Origin: Candidatus Omnitrophota bacterium
Lineage (GTDB): Bacteria > Omnitrophota > Gorgyraeia > B26-G9
Reading direction: 5' to 3'
Length of the DNA: 64,000 nucleotides
Assembly (NCBI GenBank): GCA_018817165.1
Contig: JAHITY010000088.1
Coordinates: 2,866 to 66,865, forward strand
Shown here: one piece after another, positions 1-10,291 of the stretch
How the letters are laid out: each line of letters begins with the position of its first letter
Numbering within the stretch: position 1 is the first letter of the stretch
Position numbers and translations under genes: made by a program
The notes under the pieces: generated by a model
Databases searched by the model: none
What the model was told of the DNA's origin: nothing
What the model saw: the letters and a program-made list of their open reading frames with translations, nothing else

Positions 1-2384
1 CCCTTTTTGCTTAACTTCTTCCAGAAGTGTTCAAGAATATTTTCCATTGCCTGGCGACAATTTTTTAAAGCGTCTCTTCTGTTATCCTTTTGATAATCGC
101 GATCGGCCAATTCCAAATAATGCTTAGGATCAGAATAGTAAATTTTTACTCCGCGTTGTTTTATGATATCAGGAGGAATAAATTGAATATTAGAAACTAA
201 GTCGTTTCGCTTATTCTTATCAGAGGCAAGTTCAAGATTTTTGACAAATTCCTCTCCATGGCAAGTAATAATTTGTTGTTTATCCTTTAAATCTTCATGA
301 GAAAGCAATAATTCGATAATACCGCTTCTATGGTCATCATCAATAGCATTGACGATATCATCGAACACTAAAATTTCAAGACCTTCATTAACGGCTTTTG
401 AAAGTAGTAATACTAATCCAAGACATCTGATATGCCCTTCACTAAGAATTTGCAAAGCATCCAGCCGATTTTCGCTACCTAAAAAAAGTATTTCAATTTT
501 TTGTCCGCTTTCAGAGGGTAAAAATAATTCATTTATTTTTTCAAACTCTGGGTCTTGATAGTTAATAATATTGTAGAATTCAGCAGCCTTTGAAGCGATA
601 TTTTTTGAAATCATATATGGTAAGGAATCACGATATTTTTTCAAATCTACAATTATTTTAGCATATGATGTGCGAAATTGATTGTTACGTTCAATTTCTT
701 TATCAAGAACTTCAATTCTTTTAATTTCTACTTCATTTTGCTTTTTAAATTTATCGATCAATGCTTGAGAAGCATTAAGTGCCCCAACAATATCTTTCTC
801 TCGCGCTTCTATTGTGATAATTTCATCACGCAAACCCTTGAGCTTCTCAATTTCTTCATGCAGCTTACTATACTGTTCGCGTTTCGAAACGAGACTTAAG
901 TTGTAATCTTTTATTACTTTTTTTGTCTCTTTTATAAACGTTGAATGCTTCCGGATCTTTTCTATCTCAGCATTTGTGGAAGCAAGGAACATGTCGACTC
1001 TTTTAATTTCAAAGTTAGAAAGAGTTATCGTCGGCAGCAGATCTGCTTTCGGCTTTATTATATTATAAACAGTATTATAGCTTTGGATATAATCGTTCAT
1101 TGTTCTAGAGTTATCTAAAATGCTTTGAGCTAAAGAATGTATTTTCTCTTCAAGCTCCGCTAAAGATTTTAGTAGATTGTGTTGCTCATTAGCATTTTCA
1201 TATGGATTTTTGGTCACATTATTCAATGGTGTCAAACATGCCGGACAAATGGACTTGTCATAATCATCGCGGCCAGCAAGATCTTTTATCGAATTAAATA
1301 ACGCTTTAAATACAACATCCTTTCCTGCACTAACATATTTTTCTTGTATTTTCTTAAGGTCTTTAATACTTTTTTTAATGTGGGAAATTGAATCTCTGAC
1401 ATTCTGCGGTATTTTTTCATCAATATTATTTGGTATCTCTCTTCCCTTTTCATCTTGAAGTAAAGATATTTTTCCTTTTGTATCACTTTCATCATCAAGT
1501 AACTTCTTGAACTCTCTGATGTTTTTTATATTTGGGGTTCCTAGTTTTTTGATTAATTCAATCTCTTCGCTTTTGAGATTTTGAAGTTTGGTTTTTTCTT
1601 CCGCCAAAGTAGCAATATTTTGTTTATATTTCACTTGTTGTTCTTCAAAAGAAACTTTTAACGAATTGGTGGCTAATAAATGCTTGTCATCAAGAGTATC
1701 CGTAAAGTCTTCAACAAATGAATGGAATGCATCAAGACCGAAAAGAATGGAAATCCGAGCCTGCTGGTCTTTTGGGGTTGTGGCTGCCAGGCGAGCAAAT
1801 GAGTCAATTCTGTTTTTTTCTATGAAACAAAATCGGTAATTTTGAGATGAGGGTTGAACCAGATCCTCTTCTCCGTTATCAATGCTCCCATAAGCATTAG
1901 GTTTTTCCCAATTACCGGTATCAACATTCTGTAAATATTCTTGTATAGGAATTCTCTTAGCATCACACTCTTCAATTTCACCAAGTAACGCGTATTCAAG
2001 GCCTTCACAGAAACTGGATTTTCCAGATCCATTTGGCCCGCACATGTATGTATACTGCGTTTCAAACCGGAATGTTTCCTTTTGCCTAAACCCCCTGAAA
2101 GGACCAATCTCTAATCTTGTTATTTTAGAAACTCTTTTGTGATTACCAGACTCTTTCGAATGTACGGGAGAAACAAAAGGTTTGATGTCCTCACTAAACT
2201 TCTTGATTAGCTCTCCAATTCTTTTTGCCCTTTTACTTTGGGAACGTCCTAAAGGATAAAGTTCGTCTAAATTAGTTGCAATAAGATTTAGAAGCTTTTT
2301 ATCCGTATCGTTAAGTGTTTTATCTTGCTTTATACGTTCTAGCCAGAGATAAAACTCATTCTTTACAATAGCTGGTATGTTCAT
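1..2384 (-). CDS. Rad50/RloC-like ABC ATPase with coiled-coil zinc hook; 3'-truncated by the window edge (C-terminus lies beyond position 1). A candidate anticodon-nuclease or abortive-infection ATPase linked to the type I RM module
   Basis: Hand translation of the minus strand from the ATG at 2384 is open all the way to position 1. A Shine-Dalgarno AAGGAA sits 8 nt upstream, and the start lies 3 nt after the hsdS stop. Motifs seen: Walker A (LEIGPFRGF...YMCGPNGSGKSSF), a long K/E-rich coiled coil with a central CPAC zinc-hook-like motif (DYDKSICPACLTP), an ABC signature (LSEGH), Walker B (LEILVFDD), a D-loop and an H-loop-like ITCHG, followed by more than 100 further residues of extra C-terminal domain. 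The ORF track does not list it because it has no in-window stop; track ORFs 1286..1498 and 1820..2107 are out-of-frame pieces of it. Confidence 0.55.
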   Translation of the reverse strand, partial: MNIPAIVKNEFYLWLERIKQDKTLNDTDKKLLNLIATNLDELYPLGRSQSKRAKRIGELIKKFSEDIKPFVSPVHSKESGNHKRVSKITRLEIGPFRGFRQKETFRFETQYTYMCGPNGSGKSSFCEGLEYALLGEIEECDAKRIPIQEYLQNVDTGNWEKPNAYGSIDNGEEDLVQPSSQNYRFCFIEKNRIDSFARLAATTPKDQQARISILFGLDAFHSFVEDFTDTLDDKHLLATNSLKVSFEEQQVKYKQNIATLAEEKTKLQNLKSEEIELIKKLGTPNIKNIREFKKLLDDESDTKGKISLLQDEKGREIPNNIDEKIPQNVRDSISHIKKSIKDLKKIQEKYVSAGKDVVFKALFNSIKDLAGRDDYDKSICPACLTPLNNVTKNPYENANEQHNLLKSLAELEEKIHSLAQSILDNSRTMNDYIQSYNTVYNIIKPKADLLPTITLSNFEIKRVDMFLASTNAEIEKIRKHSTFIKETKKVIKDYNLSLVSKREQYSKLHEEIEKLKGLRDEIITIEAREKDIVGALNASQALIDKFKKQNEVEIKRIEVLDKEIERNNQFRTSYAKIIVDLKKYRDSLPYMISKNIASKAAEFYNIINYQDPEFEKINELFLPSESGQKIEILFLGSENRLDALQILSEGHIRCLGLVLLLSKAVNEGLEILVFDDIVNAIDDDHRSGIIELLLSHEDLKDKQQIITCHGEEFVKNLELASDKNKRNDLVSNIQFIPPDIIKQRGVKIYYSDPKHYLELADRDYQKDNRRDALKNCRQAMENILEHFWKKLSKK

Positions 2385-2387
2385 TAT

Positions 2388-3560
2388 TTAATTTCCTTTT
2401 ACTTTCAACTCTCCGCTCATCAGCTTTGGCAAAAGCGTATCTCGAAGTTTTTCAAGCGTAGAAATTTGATTTGCATTGTTCTTTAACTTAGGAAATATCT
2501 CTACCAATTGATAGTTTAATTTCTCAATTATTTTCATTGGTGGCATTTTCATTTCATATTCTTTAATTACATTAGCTTGTGCTCTTTGCCTCCCACTCGA
2601 GCCAGACATACTACTAATAGCAAAATCTCTAAAATCTTTATCCTTGGCTAAAATATATGAAATATATGGGTGAAATTGCTCTTTCATCCTTATCACAATA
2701 TATTCTGTCGATCCCCAACCAATTTCCTTATTATCTAAAAACGTCACAAAACAAGTTTTTCCATTTTCTAAGCATGGAGTAATCCTTGCTAAAAGAGTAT
2801 CTCCATTTTGAAATTTCATCCCTGATGTAAATTCTCGTTTATACCAACCCTCTGGATTAAAGGTTGAACTACTTACATTGCCCATTTCAAGGTATGTTGA
2901 GATATTTCCCTTCTTAAGCTGATATGTAGGATTTATATCCGCAATATCTTCAAGGCAACCATCCTCCCACTCCTCCTTAGCCTCTTCCACAAACCACTGC
3001 CTAAAAAGCGTTTCAGCTATTGATTCAAGGGTTTTATTTTGGCGGTGAAGTAAATCAATCTTATCATCCAAACTCGACAATACCCCGGCAATTGCTTTTT
3101 GTTCAGGAAGTGAGGGCAATATAATATCCAAATTTTCAATATCTGAAGGCTTTAATGATGGATATGTTGAAGTTGAAGCCTCAGCGATTATATCCAACTC
3201 CTCAACAATATCATCCGCCGACAAATAAAAATAAATAAACTTCGGGTCGGCTAAGTTTTTATTTGTTTCCAATACAACAAAACCTGTTGAAACAACTAAA
3301 TTTTCTTCTGGCTGAGCTACAAAACCATAATGACGTTGTATCGGTCTTACTGTTGAATAAACAATATCATCATGTTTTACTAGTCGTTTAGCCCTACTCG
3401 GAGCATCAATCAATTCAAGTTCCTGATACCCATCAATCTTTCCACAAGTAATGGAACCTGTATCTAAATATTTAATTACATTAAACTTATAGTCGCGACC
3501 AACACTCCGATTATTCGATGATATAACATCCCCCAACTTACATTCTTTCCAATCAGTCAT
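2388..3560 (-). CDS. hsdS: Type I restriction-modification specificity subunit HsdS
   Basis: Two target-recognition domains separated by the conserved central repeat (LPSLPEQKAIAGVLSSLDDKIDLLHRQNKTLESIAETLFRQWF). The conserved C-terminal repeat TLEKLRDTLLPKLMSGEL is present. Confidence 0.85.
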   Translation of the reverse strand: MTDWKECKLGDVISSNNRSVGRDYKFNVIKYLDTGSITCGKIDGYQELELIDAPSRAKRLVKHDDIVYSTVRPIQRHYGFVAQPEENLVVSTGFVVLETNKNLADPKFIYFYLSADDIVEELDIIAEASTSTYPSLKPSDIENLDIILPSLPEQKAIAGVLSSLDDKIDLLHRQNKTLESIAETLFRQWFVEEAKEEWEDGCLEDIADINPTYQLKKGNISTYLEMGNVSSSTFNPEGWYKREFTSGMKFQNGDTLLARITPCLENGKTCFVTFLDNKEIGWGSTEYIVIRMKEQFHPYISYILAKDKDFRDFAISSMSGSSGRQRAQANVIKEYEMKMPPMKIIEKLNYQLVEIFPKLKNNANQISTLEKLRDTLLPKLMSGELKVKGN

Positions 3561-3647
3561 TATTTACCATCCCACTCTAGTCTTAACTGATTAATTTCTT
3601 TCTCAGAAATGTCCAATTCTATTAAAATCTTTTGCATAATTTCTCTA

Positions 3648-3683
3648 CTTGTTCGGTTACTTATTCGGTTGCTTGTTCGGCAC
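3648..3683. repeat. Three tandem 12-bp direct repeats (cttgttcggtta / cttattcggttg / cttgttcggcac)
   Basis: Read directly from the sequence. They lie in the gene-remnant region between the ORF6N gene and hsdS. Confidence 0.6.
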
Positions 3684-3734
3684 ATTGGGTTTTAAATCCA
3701 ATTTTAGTCTCAAGTTTTACCTTTTTCTCAAAAT

Positions 3735-3953
3735 CTACATCTCTTTAGAGGAGATTTCCACTTTATAGGAAAGCTGCTTCCTGGTAATTTCAGGATGATT
3801 CCTTACCAATCGCAAGATCATTTCTTGGGTAGTTTCTTGGATAGCTTCTTGGGTAGTCTTTTGAGGGACATTCTTAAACCTTATCACAAAACTACCGTCT
3901 ATTACCTGATATTCAGGTAAAGGCAAGCCATCTGCTTTTAACAATTGATTCAT
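3735..3953 (-). pseudogene. Remnant of an AlbA_2/HATPase_c_4-type DNA-binding protein gene of the kind often inserted in type I RM loci
   Basis: The 72-aa ORF carries the characteristic segment GLPLPEYQVIDGSFVIRFKNVPQKTTQEAIQETTQE...ITRKQLS seen in the C-terminal HTH region of those proteins, but the rest of the gene is missing. A further 29-codon ORF (3561..3647) ends in a TAATG overlap with hsdS. Confidence 0.35.
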
Positions 3954-3957
3954 TATT

Positions 3958-4845
3958 TTACAATCTCTCTAATATTTTTAATGCCTGTTTACCAAACTTA
4001 GAAAATGCGAACATTTTCTTCCCCAAATCTTTTAATGATGCCCCAAAATGATAAACATCTTTATTATCAATAATTAAAAATCTGTCATGAGCATCTTTAA
4101 ATTCTTGAATAATAATTTCCGGATATTGCTCATTATGCTTTTTTAAATCCAAAGCAAGCTGTTTTGTTATAACCTTTGTAAAAATCCGCGCAGAAACACC
4201 TTTTTTGCGCTTAGTAAATAATGTCAGAACCGAATCATCAACATAATTATCAATCAGAATAATTGACTTTTTTGCCTTTCGTATAAGATCAGATACAAAT
4301 TTGTAAGCATCAAAAACTTGACCCTCAAAAAATATACCCTGTTTAGGCAATGCGTCTCCGCTCTCTAATGCCTTAAAAACCTGTTCAAATTTTTGATCTG
4401 TTATAATCTGATGTTCAAGCTGTTTTTTCTCCACTTCGTGTAACCTTTGGAATAATTGCCCATTAGACAAAATAAATTTACGCATCGCCACAAACGCGTT
4501 AATAATTTTAATACTAATTTTTACTGCTATATCACTCTTAAGAACTCCCGCGAGCATTGCAATGCCTTGTTCGTTAAAAACATACGGTAAATAACGTCGG
4601 CCACCCTTATTTCCCTTTGAGGTCACAAAATGTGACCTCAAACAATCATTCTCTTCTGTTGTCAGCTGAAACATAAATTCATCGGGAAAGCGTTCTTTAT
4701 TGCGTTTTACCGCTTGATTCAAAATCTTTGTTTCAACACCATAAAGTTCTGCCAAATCACTATCCAGCATAACCTGAACATCCCGCACCGTAAAAATCTT
4801 TCTTTCAACAGCTTCTAATTTAACTATCTCATTTTTCTCCATCAC
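3958..4845 (-). CDS. ORF6N (KilA-N-like) domain protein embedded between hsdM and hsdS
   Basis: The N-terminus IFTVRDVQVMLDSDLAELYGVETKILNQAVKRNKERFPDEFMFQLT is typical of the ORF6N domain. Its position between hsdM and hsdS is also typical. Confidence 0.6.
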   Translation of the reverse strand: MMEKNEIVKLEAVERKIFTVRDVQVMLDSDLAELYGVETKILNQAVKRNKERFPDEFMFQLTTEENDCLRSHFVTSKGNKGGRRYLPYVFNEQGIAMLAGVLKSDIAVKISIKIINAFVAMRKFILSNGQLFQRLHEVEKKQLEHQIITDQKFEQVFKALESGDALPKQGIFFEGQVFDAYKFVSDLIRKAKKSIILIDNYVDDSVLTLFTKRKKGVSARIFTKVITKQLALDLKKHNEQYPEIIIQEFKDAHDRFLIIDNKDVYHFGASLKDLGKKMFAFSKFGKQALKILERL

Positions 4846-4991
4846 TCTTCACCTATTTTAATTTATTCCTCACTTCATACACTGCTTCCGTTATAAGGTC
4901 ACATTTTGTGACCTTATAATGTTTCCAAACCTGCATTGGATTATGTATTTCTTTTTTAGATATCACAATTTGTGACTTCCAATCGTCCATT

Positions 4992-6560
4992 TCATCCTGA
5001 GTTAACTGAAGCCGCATTGACTTTAACTTTTTTCAAATTTTCTTTGATCAATGCGTTTAATTTTTCTTCTTCTTTCAGCTGTTCTTCAAATTCTTTTTTC
5101 AAAGCTGTAAACCGCTCATTAAAATCAAAATCATCTTCTTCATCCGGCAAACCAACATATCTACCTGGAGTCAGAACATAATCAAGTTCTCTAACTTTTT
5201 CTATGGATGTGGAATTACAAAACCCCTTTACATCCTCATAGTTACTTTCAGATTTACGCCAATTATGATAAGTTTGAGCTATATGTTTGATATCATCTGG
5301 TGAAAACTCCTTGGTTCTGCGATTGATCAAATGTCCCATATTGCGGGCATCAATAAACAGAATCTCATCAGTACGATTTCTATATCCGCCATTGGCTTTA
5401 TTTCTGCTTAAAAACCAAAGGCTTGCGGGAATCTGAGTATTTAAAAATAACTTTGCCGGAAGATTAACAATGCAGTCAACCAATCTGGCTTCAATCAAGG
5501 ATTTGCGGATATCACCTTCTCCTGAGGTTTTGGAGGTCAAAGAGCCTTTGGCCAAAACAAAACCCGCCATGCCTTTTGGACTCAGATGATATAAAAAGTG
5601 TTGTATCCAAGCATAATTAGCATTGCCGGGAGGCGGTGTGCCGAATTTCCAGCGGCCGTCATTACGTAGCAATTCACCACTCCAATCACTGTCATTAAAC
5701 GGAGGATTGGCAATCAAATAATCTGCTTTTAGATCTTTATGGCCATCATTTAAAAATGACCCTTCATTATTCCATTTAACTTGAGAGCTATCAATATTGC
5801 GAATTGCCAGATTCATTTTGGCCAAACGCCAGGTAGTTTGATTGCTTTCCTGTCCATAAATAGATAGATCATTTACTCTGCCTTGATGGCTGGATACAAA
5901 CTTTTCTGATTGAACAAACATACCTCCGGAACCGCAGCAAGGATCAAATACCCGGCCTTTGTGCGGCTCAAGCATTTCAACAAGTAATTCGACAACACTT
6001 CTCGGAGTATAAAACTGTCCGCCCTTTTTCCCTTCAGCCAGAGCAAATTCTCCCAAAAAATATTCAAATACATGCCCAAGAATATCAGCACTGCGGGCTT
6101 TGGCATCACCCAACGCAATTTTGCTAATCTCATCAATCAATCCACCAAGATTTGTCGGATCAAGATTGCCACGAGCGTATACCTTAGGCAATACGCCATT
6201 AAGCGATGGATTTTCCTTTTCAATGATATCCATTGCCGAGTCAACTATCTTACCAATAGTCGGCATTTTGGCATTAGAGCGCAAATGATTCCAACGAGCA
6301 ATTCCCGGAACAAAGAAAACATTTTCCGCTTTGTATTCATCTTTATCCTCTGGATCCGCGCCAGAATAACTCCCTTTACCAGCTACAAGTTTATCGTGCA
6401 ATTCTTCAAAAGTATCAGAGATATATTTTAAAAACATTAAGCCTAAAACTATATGTTTGTATTCAGCCGCGTCAATATTCTTTCTAAGCTTATCCGCGAC
6501 TTTCCAAAGCTGTTTTTCAATCGGCTCATCTTGAGTCTTGTTGTTTTTAACTTTTGCCAT
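4992..6560 (-). CDS. hsdM: Type I restriction-modification DNA methyltransferase subunit HsdM (N6-adenine)
   Basis: An N-terminal HsdM_N domain plus the motifs [17 protein letters not shown] and NPPF. Confidence 0.9.
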
Positions 6561-6584
6561 GTTTTCTCCAAATTCTTATAATAA

Positions 6585-7277
6585 TTATAAAATTCCTTGA
6601 TCGCTAAAACTATAGAAACCCTCACTACCAATAATGATATGATCTATTAATTTAATTTGCATCAGTTTTGCAGCTTCACTTAATTCTTTGGTAAATTTTT
6701 CATCTTGAGGACTTGGCTTTATCCTAGCACTGGGATGATTATGCGCGCAAATTATTGATACCGCGAATTTCTGCAAAGCTCCATGGATAATTTCCCGCAC
6801 AATCGGCATGGCGTGATTTACTGTACCTATTGCCGCGTCTTCAATATCAATAATTCGATTATCACTATCAAGATAAACAACCTTGAAAATCTCAGTCTTT
6901 AAATCCCTCATTTGCGGCATAAGAACATCCACAAGCTCTTTTGCTGATTTTATTTTCTGTTTTCCGGCAACAAGTTCATCTTCACGGAACCGCCTACCAA
7001 TCTCAAGAGCCGCCTGAATATGGGCAAGCTTTGCGCTGCCCAAGCCTTTAAACTCTTTCCAATCCCGCGCGTCTGTTTGAGTCATATTGCGAAATGTGCT
7101 AAATTTTTTAAGAATATTACGAGCAAGGTCAATCGCACTGGTGCCTTTAGTTCCGGTGCGCAGAAGAATAGCCAAGAGCTCAGACTTACTCAAAGTTTTC
7201 GCCCCATTCTTAAGCAGCTTCTCTCTGGGCCGATCATCTACTGGCCAACTGATAATACCTTGCGATTTCTTTTTCAT
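6585..7277 (-). CDS. radC: RadC-family JAB/MPN domain protein (UPF0758)
   Basis: A helix-hairpin-helix N-terminus and a JAMM motif (CAHNHPSA...SPQD). Confidence 0.85.
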   Translation of the reverse strand: MKKKSQGIISWPVDDRPREKLLKNGAKTLSKSELLAILLRTGTKGTSAIDLARNILKKFSTFRNMTQTDARDWKEFKGLGSAKLAHIQAALEIGRRFREDELVAGKQKIKSAKELVDVLMPQMRDLKTEIFKVVYLDSDNRIIDIEDAAIGTVNHAMPIVREIIHGALQKFAVSIICAHNHPSARIKPSPQDEKFTKELSEAAKLMQIKLIDHIIIGSEGFYSFSDQGIL

Positions 7278-7583
7278 AACACACCCTTAAAAACAAAAAA
7301 CCGAAGGATGTTTATCCTTCAGCCCCTATTCCAGTTATAACAAATACAATTTGATTTTCATCACATTATTTGATCCCATATTTAGATAAATTCAAAAGCC
7401 AAAAATATTCTTCGCTCAATCCAATAGCCCATCTAGACAATTTCTAAATTATCTAATATTTTACTAGGAATTAAAAAAGATAATAATATGTAATAATTAT
7501 ACTACCCCCGTACTAGTTAAACAACCCCTAAAATTAATGGAGATATAAACTTGCTATATCTCTAAACCTATGGCTATATTGTA

Positions 7584-7913
7584 ATGACAGCAAAGGAGAT
7601 GATTATGGAACAGGCAAAACTCAGGGAAATTATGGGGCATAAAGATTATACATTATCAGAGCTAAAGGCCAAATATAAGGCCTTATATGGCCCAGAAAGC
7701 GCCACACCAAGCAATAAAGTCTACTTATGGCGCAAGATTGCCTATAAACTGCAGGAACTGGAACACGGCGGGCTTTCCAGCCAAGCCCAGGGCAAAATTG
7801 AGGAGTTTATCGAGAAATATGACCCAGTTAACAATAAATTTAAAGATTATAAGATATCCAAATATTCAGATATTTTATCTAAAATTTCCTTAAAAGGAAT
7901 CTGCCCCTTATAA
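7584..7913 (+). CDS. DUF2924-like small protein, typical of integrative-element cargo. The true start is probably the ATG at 7605, preceded by AAGGAG.
   Basis: The sequence LREIMGHKDYTLSELKAKYKALYG...LWRKIAYKLQELEHGGLS matches the DUF2924 pattern. The ORF converges with AbiEii and overlaps it by 67 nt. Confidence 0.45.
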   Translation: MTAKEMIMEQAKLREIMGHKDYTLSELKAKYKALYGPESATPSNKVYLWRKIAYKLQELEHGGLSSQAQGKIEEFIEKYDPVNNKFKDYKISKYSDILSKISLKGICPL

Positions 7914-8794
7914 TATAAAGCCGACGTATTATTATATTCTCTTTCAAAAAGCTTTCTTGTTTTAACATTTTCTAACAATAAAGCTTCCTGTTTTAGAACA
8001 GGAAGTTCCTTATCTTTATCAGGAAATCGACACTCTTTATGATCTAGATATTCTTGTGTTCCAATAAAGTCCTGAACTGTCTCAACATTTAAAAGGCAAG
8101 CAAGATCATAATAATGTCGAATGAAATTTGGAGACAGTTGCCCACTTTCTTGAAATTGACGAAATTTTGTTAAAACTGTTTGCATTTTTTCAACGAATGT
8201 ATACCCAGGATGATAGCATTTTACATCGCAAGCTTTATTATCTAAAACTTCCATATTATTTTTTTGAGCAAAATCAAGAGCCCAAGAACTAATTATCAAA
8301 GGAGTATTGGGAGCAACATTATCAAAACCAACTTCAAGCAAAATCCCCTCTTTTACCCCATCGGCAAATGTAAACGTATTTTTATAGTAAAGCCGAATTC
8401 CTCCACTTCTGTATTTTTTATCATCAAAATCAGTATCACGCTCTACTCTATCTATTCCCTCAATTTGGATATTATTCGCAAGCCAATCATAGTAATTTTT
8501 ACGGCTTTCACAATGCTTTGGTTTATCATGATTTCTTCCAGTCTTAACATTCATCTGCGCAGGTGGTTCGATACGAATATCTATATCTTCGGAAAAACGA
8601 TGAATTATTCCATAGCCCTTAGAAAGTGATGTGCCGCCTTTTAATTCAAATAAGAATTCATTTTTCTGCAATCCATATAACACATGCATTATCCAATAAT
8701 CCTTTTCCACAAGACTACTCTCTATATTATGCTGATGTTCTACGGCTCGCAAAAGTTCTTTAAATTCATGATGGTTATGCAAATAATCAGGCAT
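7847..8794 (-). CDS. abiEii: AbiEii/AbiGii-family nucleotidyltransferase toxin of a type IV toxin-antitoxin / abortive-infection system (DUF1814)
   Basis: Carries the nucleotidyltransferase motif LKGGTSLSKGYGIIHRFSEDIDI. Confidence 0.8.
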   Translation of the reverse strand: MPDYLHNHHEFKELLRAVEHQHNIESSLVEKDYWIMHVLYGLQKNEFLFELKGGTSLSKGYGIIHRFSEDIDIRIEPPAQMNVKTGRNHDKPKHCESRKNYYDWLANNIQIEGIDRVERDTDFDDKKYRSGGIRLYYKNTFTFADGVKEGILLEVGFDNVAPNTPLIISSWALDFAQKNNMEVLDNKACDVKCYHPGYTFVEKMQTVLTKFRQFQESGQLSPNFIRHYYDLACLLNVETVQDFIGTQEYLDHKECRFPDKDKELPVLKQEALLLENVKTRKLFEREYNNTSALYYKGQIPFKEILDKISEYLDIL

Positions 8795-9380
8795 ACATTA
8801 AAGACTCCTCTGTTATCCATTTATTAAATAGAGTTTTTGTTCTTTCTCCCGCATAAGAATTGAAAACTTTTTTCATCTTTGATTTCGATCCTCTCAAAAC
8901 ATTTTCTTTAACACTTTTAAGAACATCCTCTCTATTTTCTGCTAGCTCATTTAAATTATTCAACAAATCAACCAATAAAAACTCTTTAGAGAGATGTTTA
9001 GGAAATTTATACTTTAAATGAAAATAAAACAACTTTCCTCCAAGCATGAATTGTCCATGGCGTTTATAATTATAAACAACCCTCTTATTATACAGTTGTG
9101 TTGTTCCCACGCCCAATGAATTATATAAATTAGGAGTAGTTAAAAGGAAATCTTTACTTTTTAAAAAAACCTGCACAAGTTTTTCATCCTCTGGAGGAAC
9201 ATTCCCAAAGGATGCTTTCATGGGATAATAATACAATCCCTGCGATACTTTCTGCAAAACCTTTTCTTTTACTAATTGCTTTAAGTGTCTATCAACAGCA
9301 TTAGACCATTGCGCTAGATCACTCCTACGATAAACCCGTCCTGGTTTCAGATTCTTTTTTAACTCTTTAATTGCCTTCAT
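8787..9380 (-). CDS. abiEi: AbiEi-family antitoxin / transcriptional regulator
   Basis: A winged-HTH-like N-terminus (RVYRRSDLAQWSNAVDRHLKQLVKEKVLQKV). It overlaps the downstream AbiEii gene by 8 nt. Confidence 0.6.
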   Translation of the reverse strand: MKAIKELKKNLKPGRVYRRSDLAQWSNAVDRHLKQLVKEKVLQKVSQGLYYYPMKASFGNVPPEDEKLVQVFLKSKDFLLTTPNLYNSLGVGTTQLYNKRVVYNYKRHGQFMLGGKLFYFHLKYKFPKHLSKEFLLVDLLNNLNELAENREDVLKSVKENVLRGSKSKMKKVFNSYAGERTKTLFNKWITEESLMYA

Positions 9381-9837
9381 TTTCTCTCACCTCACACTAC
9401 AAGTATACAGTCTTATTTATTATATTGCAAGTTTTTTAATTTAAATTTCATGCACTTTATTGACTTAAAAACAGTTTAATTATAGAACACATCAACTATA
9501 TTTAACTCTCAATTAATCATCATTAACGCAACATTAAGATATAATTATAGTTACAGCAAACACAAAAATTAACCAGTTGCATATCCTTTTACTTGAGAGA
9601 TAAAAAACAGAGAATTTCTAGTTAATGCTTCAAATCTCACCCATTAATCTTAACAATATCCGCCATAAATTCATTTACTAAAACTGATTCGCGAATCGCG
9701 ATATTAGAGATAAAGAGATACTAAAAAAAGCAGAAATTAGAACATAGGGTTTAGGGATTAGGCCTCCCCAGATAAAAGCAGATTATTTAGATAGCAGACA
9801 ATAAATATAAGTCATAACTCTTTGATGTGTTTGCAGA

Positions 9838-9872
9838 TACAAAAGGCCTGATAAGTAATTCTTATCAGGCCT
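9838..9872 (-). terminator. Rho-independent terminator-like hairpin
   Basis: A perfect 12-bp stem (aggcctgataag/cttatcaggcct) with a taatt loop. On the minus strand it is followed by TTTTGT. Confidence 0.4.
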
Positions 9873-9908
9873 TCTATTATCTCTCAAACTGGTGTTCGAG
9901 AGATTTAT

Positions 9909-9935
9909 TTGGCTGCCCCGCAGAACATTGAACCG
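9909..9935 (-). repeat. Partial direct repeat of the tRNA-Gln 3' end (candidate att core)
   Basis: The 14 nt ttggctgccccgca are identical to the tRNA-Gln 3' end (10216..10229). A further partial match (ttgaacc) follows. Confidence 0.6.
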
Positions 9936-10180
9936 TCGTGTCGCTCCCCTTGAAAAGCAGGTCCACTCACTCCCTAAGGGAGCACTCTTTCAGTTCCCCC
10001 TTAGTATTCCTCCTCCCTACGCAAAGAAGTTCCAGTACGCCGATCCCGAATGAAGTTGCCTAAGAAAAATATCCATCGGGATCCCGAAGAATCACCACAG
10101 AAGTCGAGGCATTCGGGATAAGGGAAAAACAGTCTTTTTCCCTAAAACCCTTTTTTATGGTTCGAGTCCAGGGCATAAAT

Positions 10181-10205
10181 AAAAAACCCACACTAAAAGT
10201 GTGGG
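10181..10205 (-). terminator. tRNA-Gln terminator hairpin
   Basis: A stem cccacac/gtgtggg flanked by an A-run and a T-run, immediately 3' of the tRNA. Confidence 0.5.
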
Positions 10206-10216
10206 TCTTATTATTT

Positions 10217-10291
10217 TGGCTGCCCCGCATGGACTTGAACCATGAACAAATGATCCAGAATCATCCGTGTTGCCAATTACACCACGGGGCA
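10217..10291 (-). tRNA. tRNA-Gln (anticodon CUG)
   Basis: The hand-folded 75-nt sequence has a 7-bp acceptor stem, U8, a D-loop with GG, anticodon loop UUCUGGA, T-loop TTCAAGT and an encoded CCA. Confidence 0.85.

What the first reader, a model, noticed from the sequence alone, without database searches (positions are those of the whole stretch)
1..2384. Large Rad50/RloC-like ATPase with a zinc hook, translationally coupled to hsdS
Hand translation shows an ABC-ATPase head (Walker A GPNGSGKS, signature LSEGH, Walker B LVFDD, H-loop) split by a roughly 500-aa coiled coil that has a central CPAC motif, the hallmark of a Rad50-type zinc hook. More than 100 residues follow the ATPase before the window ends, including an R-Q-A-M-E (R-x3-E) element like that of PrrC/RloC anticodon nucleases. 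The gene starts 3 nt after the hsdS stop, in the same orientation as hsdM-hsdS, inside a defence island. That matches the RloC/PrrC paradigm of a latent tRNA-cleaving suicide module guarded by a type I RM complex. It is not an SbcC, because there is no SbcD partner and there is an extra C-terminal domain. The ORF track omits it because it runs off the window edge.
Basis: partly seen in the sequence, partly recalled or inferred. Interest (0 to 1): 0.75.

Follow-up and report, generated by a model that had tools for sequence, protein, structure and literature searches.

The report
Rad50-like hook ATPase fused to HEPN RNase
The gene wedged between hsdS and hsdR of this type I restriction operon encodes a 913-residue Rad50-like ATPase with a zinc hook and a C-terminal HEPN-fold domain predicted to cut RNA: it is built like the anticodon nuclease RloC but belongs to a separate, so far unnamed family that is also found inside BREX and type ISP operons.

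Summary
Bases 2384→1 (minus strand) are an open 794-codon ORF that starts 3 nt after the hsdS stop. It carries Walker A GPNGSGKS, a CPAC hook, LSEGH, ILVFDD, an H-loop and RQAME.

The full protein (P0001, 913 aa, an Omnitrophica MAG) was recovered, and hsdR starts 15 nt after its stop. The operon is therefore hsdM–(PDC-S05)–orf72–hsdS–ATPase–hsdR, the position prrC holds in EcoprrI.

In 176 relatives K122, C380/P381/C383, D675/D676, H709, R777, E781 and H855 are invariant.

It is not a member of the PrrC/RloC family:
- Pfam AAA_13 is missed or below threshold.
- hhalign against real PrrC nuclease domains is null.
- The Glu-to-His spacing is 64–83, against 36–52 in RloC.
- A profile of the domain finds only 264 clusters, apparently all of this architecture.

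There is no fixed partner gene. About 20% of loci lie in type I, BREX or type ISP operons.

Verdict: an RloC-like abortive RNase module, a new variant of a known kind. The RNA target and the trigger are inferred.

The parts
1..2384 (-). Partial CDS (codons 1-794 of 913) of the Rad50-like hook ATPase-HEPN protein. The last 119 codons lie beyond the window edge.
   Evidence: Open frame. 100% identical to the 913-aa P0001. The gene is complete on contig L001, bases 611-3352.
2196..2372 (-). N-terminal helical domain (aa 5-63) of unknown function, specific to this family
   Evidence: Helices 5-19, 26-37, 39-42 and 48-63 in the full-length model. R52 is invariant in 176/176, and E10, F/Y11 and W/F14 are near-invariant. 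No Pfam, NCBIfam or PADLOC hit.
2016..2039 (-). Walker A / P-loop, GPNGSGKS (aa 116-123)
   Evidence: G116 and K122 are 176/176. SMC_N and AAA_23 hits.
1275..1664 (-). Ascending coiled-coil arm (aa 241-370), interrupted helices
   Evidence: DSSP of AF2 model mdbac19f97ea6.
1236..1247 (-). Zinc-hook motif C380-P-A-C383, in the loop (aa 371-393) between the two arms
   Evidence: C380, P381 and C383 are 176/176. The loop lies between helices 360-370 and 394-443.
606..1205 (-). Descending coiled-coil arm (aa 394-593)
   Evidence: Helices 394-443, 460-478 and 481-593.
432..446 (-). ABC signature motif LSEGH (aa 647-651)
   Evidence: S648, G650 and H651 are 176/176.
357..374 (-). Walker B, ILVFDD (aa 671-676), followed by the D-loop region
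   Evidence: D675 and D676 are 176/176.
258..260 (-). H-loop histidine H709
   Evidence: 176/176.
3..119 (-). First part of the C-terminal HEPN-fold domain (aa 756-794 of 756-884). The rest, including N851-K-G-x-H855, lies off the window.
42..56 (-). R777-Q-A-M-E781, predicted active-site Arg and Glu on the first long HEPN helix
   Evidence: R777 and E781 are 176/176. Same R-[N/Q]-x-x-E pattern as the essential R320-N321-x2-E324 of PrrC (PMC3025547).
2388..3560 (-). hsdS (390 aa, two target-recognition domains). Its stop is 3 nt before the ATPase start.
   Evidence: Methylase_S 5e-25. PADLOC Specificity_I 6e-94.
4992..6560 (-). hsdM, first gene of the operon
   Evidence: N6_Mtase 1e-108. HsdM_N 8e-26. 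PADLOC MTase_I 2.5e-198.

Best explanation
The gene encodes a self-contained sensor-effector protein of the RloC type. It has a Rad50/SMC-class ABC ATPase head and a folded-back coiled coil. The C-P-x-C hook in the loop between the arms would pair two protomers through zinc. The C-terminal HEPN domain would act as a metal-independent endoribonuclease.

Proposed mechanism:
1. (Inferred) The protein is latent as long as the methylation-based system it is co-transcribed with works. Here that system is type I HsdMSR; in relatives it is BREX or a type ISP enzyme.
2. (Inferred) A DNA-linked signal drives ATP-dependent engagement of the two heads. Candidate signals are DNA ends, or a stalled or inhibited restriction complex.
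3. (Inferred) Head engagement brings two HEPN domains together into an active site formed by R777, E781, N851 and H855.
4. (Inferred) The active nuclease cuts cellular RNA, by analogy tRNA anticodon loops. Translation stops and the infection aborts.

Shown here: the architecture, the HEPN fold, the invariance of the ATPase, hook and putative catalytic residues, the operon position, and recurrent insertion into three kinds of methyltransferase-based defence operon.
For: - **Full protein and operon.**. The gaps are 3 nt (hsdS to the gene) and 15 nt (the gene to hsdR).
- **Head class.**
- **Coiled coil and hook loop.**
- **HEPN fold.**
- **Invariant residues.** Walker A, signature, Walker B, H-loop, C-P-x-C, R777, E781 and H855 are 176/176. 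N851 is 173/176 and G853 is 175/176.
- **Motif register matches the essential PrrC residues.** R320-N321-x2-E324 aligns with R777-Q/R-x2-E781. R349-x2-N352-x3-H356 aligns with [S/R/N]848-x2-N851-x3-H855, with Arg at 848 in 26/176 (PMC3025547).
- **Gene order as prrC.** hsdM-hsdS-X-hsdR (PMC3014915).
- **Recurrent same-strand insertion.** After hsdS in L029, L036, L041, L042 and L045. Between pglX and pglZ in L031 and L034. After a type ISP enzyme in L003.
- **HEPN backup effectors are documented.** They have been described in RM and BREX loci (PMC3710099, PMC12839542).
Against: - There is no biochemical evidence for any member of the family.
- The canonical HEPN Rx4-6H arginine is absent in most members (position 848 is Ser in 81/176), so catalysis rests on a variant site.
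- No sequence method links the domain to any characterised HEPN RNase. Pfam gives nothing at E<=10. hhalign against PrrC gives P=0.45. The PDB profile search is null.
- Only about 17 of about 81 loci are RM- or BREX-linked, so coupling to the Hsd complex may be incidental co-location in a defence hotspot.
- Residue proximity in the model could not be inspected, because no coordinates were available.
- The RNA target is unknown.
Confidence: 0.6

Rival explanations
1. It is simply an orthologue of canonical RloC (COG4694 / Pfam AAA_13), that is, already known.
For: - The domain order is the same: ABC head, coiled coil with a CxxC hook, then R-x3-E...H.
- RloC was named after restriction-linked ORFs in type I loci (PMC2610378).
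- Six relatives give sub-threshold AAA_13 hits. In P0115 the hit runs co-linearly from Walker B into the first HEPN helix.
- Subtracting the 85-residue N-terminal extension puts R777/E781 at 692/696, the GkaRloC numbering. This may be coincidence.
Against: - P0001 has no AAA_13 hit even at E<=1. The relatives score 24-30 bits against a gathering cut-off of 36.
- Real PrrC proteins carry PF13166 and the JGI name 'wobble nucleotide-excising tRNase'. This family is named SbcC, RecF or EcfA2 instead.
- The Glu-to-His spacing is 64-83, against 36-52 in RloC. The residue before His is Thr, Val or Ile rather than Ser (PMC2610378).
- A profile of the HEPN domain finds only 264 clusters in 1.84 billion. 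In every full-length hit the domain ends a protein of about 850-920 aa; the shorter hits look like fragments.
- hhalign against the PrrC nuclease domain gives P=0.45.
- No authentic RloC sequence could be obtained for a direct comparison.
Confidence: 0.1
2. It is a PrrC-style obligate partner of the Hsd complex. HsdMSR physically masks the nuclease, and a phage anti-restriction protein unmasks it.
For: - The operon position is identical to prrC (hsdM-hsdS-X-hsdR; PMC3014915).
- The gaps of 3 nt and 15 nt imply co-translation with HsdS and HsdR.
- The same tight hsdS-to-gene junction occurs in five other genomes.
- A conserved N-terminal domain of unknown function could be a docking module.
Against: - Most family members have no Hsd genes within 10 kb, and some sit in BREX or type ISP operons instead. 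A specific Hsd interface therefore cannot be a family property.
- The N-terminal domain is equally conserved in stand-alone copies.
- Unlike this family, prrC is invariably hsd-linked (PMC3874168).
Confidence: 0.15
3. It is a DNA-directed SMC/Rad50-type factor whose C-terminal HEPN-fold domain is non-catalytic. It could be a Lamassu-LmuB-like sensor or a repair or restriction accessory, with the effector being HsdR, PglZ or another protein in trans.
For: - The best PADLOC hits are LmuB and mad3.
- Foldseek hits include Lamassu LmuACB and JetABC.
- PGAP attaches the GO term 'double-strand break repair'.
- One homologue lies next to sbcD and sbcC.
- Many HEPN domains are non-catalytic binders (PMC3710099).
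Against: - The LmuB and mad3 matches cover only the ATPase and coiled coil, at 50-90 bits against models of 370-1200 positions.
- No LmuA, LmuC, kleisin, SbcD or Mre11 partner is conserved next to the gene.
- Absolute invariance of a polar R/E/N/H constellation across 176 sequences that are otherwise 30-40% identical is what a catalytic site looks like. A mere interaction surface would not be expected to hold it.
Confidence: 0.12

Closest known systems
RloC (wobble-nucleotide-excising anticodon nuclease; Geobacillus kaustophilus, Acinetobacter baylyi)
   Same: - A single polypeptide with an ABC ATPase head split by a coiled coil that carries a CxxC zinc hook.
- A C-terminal HEPN-class RNase domain with R-x3-E and a downstream catalytic His.
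- Only a minority of genes are linked to RM loci, and the rest stand alone.
- Similar size (804 aa against about 885).
   Different: - Not matched by Pfam AAA_13 or COG4694.
- The head scores as SMC_N/Rad50.
- An extra N-terminal domain of about 65-85 aa.
- Glu-to-His spacing of 64-83 instead of 36-52, because of two extra helices.
- The motif is N-K-G-x-H rather than R-x2-N-x2-S-H.
- Also inserted in BREX and type ISP operons.
- No biochemistry.
PrrC (tRNA-Lys anticodon nuclease of the EcoprrI type Ic locus)
   Same: - The operon position hsdM-hsdS-X-hsdR.
- An ABC NTPase followed by a C-terminal HEPN RNase.
- Motif register R-[N/Q]-x2-E ... N-x3-H.
   Different: - PrrC is 396 aa, with no coiled coil and no hook.
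- It belongs to PF13166.
- It is always hsd-linked and is silenced by Hsd.
- hhalign of the nuclease domains shows no similarity (P=0.45).
Rad50 / SbcC
   Same: - The ABC head fold.
- A long antiparallel coiled coil with a C-P-x-C hook in the loop between its arms.
   Different: - No Mre11 or SbcD partner.
- A much shorter coiled coil.
- A C-terminal HEPN domain and an N-terminal helical domain are added.
- A defence-operon context.
Lamassu LmuB (and MADS mad3) SMC-like defence ATPases
   Same: - The best-scoring defence-database models.
- An SMC-like head plus coiled coil used as a sensor of foreign DNA.
   Different: - Lamassu needs a separate LmuA effector and LmuC. Here the effector is fused and no such partners are encoded.
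- The matches are limited to the ATPase and coiled coil.
Other ABC-HEPN fusions catalogued by Anantharaman et al. 2013 (APECO1_4465; ERFG_01251, which has a 'classical' HEPN)
   Same: - An ABC ATPase with a C-terminal HEPN domain in mobile or defence contexts.
- The HEPN domain here also resembles classical, MNT-associated HEPN structures (2hsb, 4nqf, 1ufb).
   Different: Identity with either family could not be tested, because no sequences were available. No HEPN_Toprim_N or any HEPN Pfam model is hit.

Membership tests
RloC | ABC ATPase head with Walker A, signature, Walker B/D-loop and H-loop | tested here: met
   All motifs are present and invariant in 176/176.
RloC | Coiled-coil insert with a central CxxC zinc hook | tested here: met
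   C380-P-A-C383 lies in a loop between helical arms 241-370 and 394-593. Invariant.
RloC | C-terminal triad Arg-x3-Glu-x36-52-His, with Ser often before His (PMC2610378) | tested here: not met
   R-x3-E and His are invariant. The spacing is 64-83 (mode 71), and the residue before His is Thr, Val or Ile.
RloC | Sequence membership of the PrrC/RloC family (Pfam PF13166 AAA_13 / COG4694) | tested here: not met
   P0001 has no AAA_13 hit at E<=1. Six relatives score 24-30 bits, below the cut-off of 36. JGI names are never 'wobble nucleotide-excising tRNase', unlike the PrrC hits.
RloC | Nuclease domain homologous to that of PrrC or RloC | tested here: not met
   hhalign of A2 against 120 real PrrC nuclease domains gives P=0.45. 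An exhaustive profile search finds 264 clusters, apparently all of this architecture. No authentic RloC sequence was available for a direct test.
RloC | DNA-dependent ATPase that switches on excision of the tRNA wobble nucleotide | not testable with these tools
   Needs biochemistry.
PrrC | ABC NTPase of about 400 aa without a coiled coil, plus the LARP tRNA-Lys recognition motif | tested here: not met
   913 aa with a 350-aa coiled coil. No PrrC-like sequence.
PrrC | Gene located between hsdS and hsdR of a type I locus | tested here: met
   Order as in PMC3014915. This holds for only about 10% of the family.
HEPN superfamily | All-alpha four-helix-core fold | tested here: met
HEPN superfamily | Rx4-6H catalytic motif | tested here: inconclusive
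   His is invariant. Arg at His-7 occurs in only 26/176. Asn at His-4 (173/176) and Lys at His-3 (165/176) are conserved. Families lacking the Arg but keeping other basic residues are known (PMC3710099). R777 may substitute for it.
HEPN superfamily | Upstream conserved acidic residue | tested here: met
   E781 is 176/176.
Rad50/SbcC | Adjacent Mre11/SbcD nuclease partner and no further domains | tested here: not met
   The neighbours are hsdS and hsdR. No conserved partner across 83 loci. A C-terminal HEPN domain is present.
Lamassu (LmuB) | Co-encoded LmuA effector (and LmuC) | tested here: not met
   No such neighbours in the window or in the related loci. The LmuB HMM matches are partial.

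The most novel reading that the evidence does not exclude
This is an independently assembled and so far unnamed family: a Rad50-hook ATPase, a family-specific HEPN RNase and a conserved N-terminal adaptor domain. It would act as a portable 'fail-safe' cassette that inserts into operons of unrelated methylation-based defences (type I RM, type ISP, BREX). It would trigger RNA cleavage when those systems are blocked or overwhelmed. On this reading it is a convergent re-invention of RloC, with its own sensing logic carried by the N-terminal domain.
Probability: 0.35. Interest if true: 0.65.

Novelty: new variant of a known kind. Interest (0 to 1): 0.5.

Why it matters
Public annotation calls this protein 'AAA family ATPase', 'SbcC', 'RecF' or a 'double-strand break repair' factor, and none of the annotations seen here records its RNase-type domain.

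Recognising it as an RloC-like hook-ATPase–HEPN fusion does three things:
- It adds a defence candidate found in at least 409 species-representative genomes, 33 plasmids and 7 predicted viral contigs.
- It shows that the 'DNA-sensing ATPase gates a suicidal RNase' design recurs outside the PrrC/RloC lineage.
- It offers a compact single-gene system for asking how Rad50-like hooks and heads pass a DNA signal to an RNase.

It also gives comparable cases for asking whether passengers of RM and BREX operons monitor their hosts, because the same protein sits in three different kinds of methyltransferase-based operon.

Tried and rejected
- **SbcC/Rad50 repair protein: rejected.** There is no SbcD, the flanks are hsd genes, and there is an extra HEPN domain.
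- **Lamassu, MADS, Septu, PARIS or AbiL membership: rejected.** PADLOC hits are partial, cover only the ATPase, and the partner genes are missing.
- **PADLOC candidate PDC-S06: no equivalence.** These models are about 850 positions long. Matches cover only the ATPase C-lobe in some relatives, and P0001 does not match.
- **Sequence searches of the C-terminal domain: no informative hit.** This covers Pfam at E<=10 and a PDB profile search.
- **Direct test of PrrC homology: negative.**
  - I recalled the EcoPrrC C-terminal sequence from memory. The database returned real 'anticodon nuclease' proteins up to 92% identical.
  - hhalign against their alignment gave nothing.
- **An authentic RloC sequence: not obtained.**
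  - The supplement of PMC3710099 that is held contains no alignments.
  - Krishnan et al. 2020 (PMC7544218), the ABC ATPase classification, is not held.
- **Foldseek against afdb50: unavailable.** The model could therefore not be compared with predicted PrrC or RloC structures.
- **Search for a conserved partner gene: none found.** The largest neighbour clusters are HsdS (6 loci), BrxL (5) and HsdM (5).
- **Active-site geometry: not checked.** Model coordinates are not exposed.
Full report
**1. Observation**

The minus strand from 2384 to the window edge is one open frame of 794 codons. Its ATG lies 3 nt after the hsdS stop codon. An AAAGGA element sits inside the 3' end of hsdS.
- GPNGSGKS at 2016-2039
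- CPAC at 1236-1247
- LSEGH at 432-446
- ILVFDD at 357-374
- the H-loop His at 258-260
- RQAME at 42-56

A word-indexed search found an identical 913-aa protein, P0001. It is annotated 'hypothetical protein' in a Candidatus Omnitrophica MAG. A second contig, L001, carries the complete gene. A gene whose product matches HSDR_N (4e-52) and SWI2_SNF2 starts 15 nt after its stop.

The operon is therefore hsdM (4992-6560), an ORF6N/PLD-like passenger (3958-4845, PADLOC PDC-S05), a 72-aa ORF, hsdS (2388-3560), this gene, and hsdR. hsdM-hsdS-X-hsdR is exactly the order of prrABCD in EcoprrI (PMC3014915).

**2. Anatomy**

Pfam sees only generic P-loop and SMC families (SMC_N 1e-12, AAA_23, AAA_21). 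NCBIfam gives weak SMC, RecF and Rad50 hits. A profile of 40 homologues hits SMC3, Rad50 and SMC heads in the PDB.

The full-length AlphaFold2 model has mean pLDDT 82.5 and shows:
- an N-terminal helical domain (5-63)
- the N-lobe of the head (87-225)
- an interrupted ascending arm (241-370)
- a loop (371-393) that carries C380-P-A-C383
- a descending arm (394-593)
- the C-lobe of the head (597-750)
- a terminal helical domain (756-884)

Foldseek's best PDB matches are Mre11-Rad50, cohesin and condensin heads, Lamassu LmuACB and JetABC.

**3. Conservation**

In 176 distinct full-length relatives (29-41% identical to P0001), the following are invariant:
- R52
- G116 and K122
- C380, P381 and C383
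- S648, G650 and H651
- D675 and D676
- H709
- R777, E781 and H855

N851 is 173/176, G853 is 175/176, W847 is 174/176 and E863 is 171/176. A working ATPase, a working hook and a polar catalytic-type constellation in the HEPN domain are therefore all under selection.

The register matches the residues shown to be essential in EcoPrrC. R320-N321-x2-E324 corresponds to R777-Q/R-x2-E781. R349-x2-N352-x3-H356 corresponds to [S/R/N]848-x2-N851-x3-H855, with Arg at 848 in 26 of 176 (PMC3025547). HEPN families that keep the His but replace the motif Arg with another conserved basic residue are documented (PMC3710099).

**4. Family membership**

RloC is defined by ABC motifs, a coiled-coil/CxxC insert and Arg-x3-Glu-x36-52-His. 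GkaRloC is 804 aa with R692, E696 and H737 (PMC2610378). The first two features are met here.

The remaining tests fail:
- The Glu-to-His spacing is 64-83, because two extra helices are inserted.
- P0001 does not hit Pfam AAA_13 at all. Six relatives score 24-30 bits against a cut-off of 36.
- I retrieved genuine PrrC proteins using the EcoPrrC C-terminus recalled from memory. The hits confirm the recall: up to 92% identity, named 'anticodon nuclease' or 'wobble nucleotide-excising tRNase', and carrying PF13166.
- hhalign between their nuclease-domain alignment and ours gives no similarity (P=0.45).
- An exhaustive profile search of 1.84 billion representatives with the HEPN domain finds only 264 proteins at E<=1e-3. 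In every full-length hit the domain ends a protein of about 850-920 aa, and the shorter hits look like fragments.

The domain is thus specific to this architecture. PADLOC's best matches (LmuB, mad3, AriA, PtuA, AbiLi, PDC-S06) cover only the ATPase and coiled coil.

I therefore do not file this protein as RloC or PrrC. It works like them in design only. One caveat remains: I could not obtain an authentic RloC sequence, so a very distant relationship is not excluded. One relative's sub-threshold AAA_13 match does run co-linearly into the first HEPN helix.

**5. Context across genomes**

The family is patchy but spans many phyla. At least 409 of 185,579 species-representative genomes encode a relative. 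So do 33 PLSDB plasmids, 21 of them conjugative and all annotated 'AAA family ATPase'. Seven IMG/VR contigs also carry it.

There is no conserved neighbour. About 17 of about 81 loci sit, always on the same strand, inside or beside methylation-based defence operons:
- **Type I.** The gene lies directly after hsdS in L029, L036, L041, L042 and L045. L036 repeats hsdM-hsdS-gene-hsdR.
- **BREX.** The gene lies between pglX and pglZ in L031 and L034. L014, L021 and L063 are also BREX-linked.
- **Type ISP.** In L003 (Treponema primitia) the gene starts 44 nt downstream of the enzyme. L071 is also type ISP-linked.

Others stand alone. One lies beside a NACHT/TPR gene (L002), and one lies after sbcD-IS-sbcC (L004). 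This mirrors what was reported for rloC, where 8 of 72 genes were in RM loci (PMC2610378). It is unlike prrC, which is always hsd-linked (PMC3874168).

**6. Mechanism**

I commit to an RloC-type, self-contained sensor-effector (confidence 0.6):
1. Hook- and ATP-mediated dimerisation of a Rad50-like head responds to a DNA-linked cue.
2. The response licenses dimerisation and activation of the HEPN RNase.
3. Translation shuts down and the infection aborts.

Co-transcription with HsdMSR would make the protein a back-up when restriction fails. The same would apply to BREX or a type ISP enzyme in the relatives. Whether the Hsd complex actually masks it, PrrC-style, is a sub-hypothesis for this locus. 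Family-wide contexts argue against that as a general rule.

The architecture, fold, conservation and context are shown. The trigger, the dimerisation-dependent activation and the RNA target are inferred.

**7. Novelty and score**

The concept is well known (PrrC, RloC, ABC-HEPN fusions, HEPN back-ups in RM and BREX). This family is unnamed in Pfam, NCBIfam and PADLOC and in the literature I could search. It appears to be a separate lineage with its own HEPN family and N-terminal domain.

I rate it a new variant of a known kind, with interest 0.5.

Noticed in passing
window 3958-4845 (-) and 3735-3953 (-): A second passenger sits in the same type I operon, between hsdM and hsdS. It is a 295-aa ORF6N-domain protein with a weak PLD-like C-terminus and matches PADLOC candidate PDC-S05 over its full length (1.5e-127). 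A 72-aa ORF with no family hit follows it.
   Followed up: partly
window 10217-10291 (-), with 1-10200: A tRNA-Gln(CTG) gene lies directly after gltX. AbiEi/AbiEii (8787-9380 / 7847-8794), RadC (6585-7277) and the hsd operon all lie on the far side of that tRNA. This looks like a tRNA-flanked defence island. No integrase is in the window.
   Followed up: partly
window 2196-2372 (-) (aa 5-63 of the ATPase): A conserved N-terminal helical domain (R52 invariant in 176/176) has no match in any library. It may be a partner-docking or DNA-binding module that RloC and PrrC are not described as having.
   Followed up: partly
L031 6120-12337+, L034 3368-8586, L014, L021, L063: Relatives of the ATPase are inserted inside BREX operons, between pglX and pglZ, with brxL downstream.
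   Followed up: partly
L003 3978-11664 (Treponema primitia ZAS-2): A relative lies 44 nt downstream of a 1659-aa type ISP restriction-modification enzyme.
   Followed up: no
L085 7001-10913 (Klebsiella variicola plasmid pNDM-IMP-2): A relative on a conjugative NDM/IMP plasmid is annotated 'AAA family ATPase' with the GO term 'double-strand break repair'. An annotated restriction endonuclease gene follows it. The public annotation does not record the HEPN domain.
   Followed up: no
P0012, P0077, P0081 (1032 aa) and C-terminal tails: A few family members carry an extra tail of about 140 aa after the HEPN domain, ending in a conserved ...GGALWVVGG...KGYRF...KGGKATKHR..W(Y/F)CK module of unknown function.
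   Followed up: no
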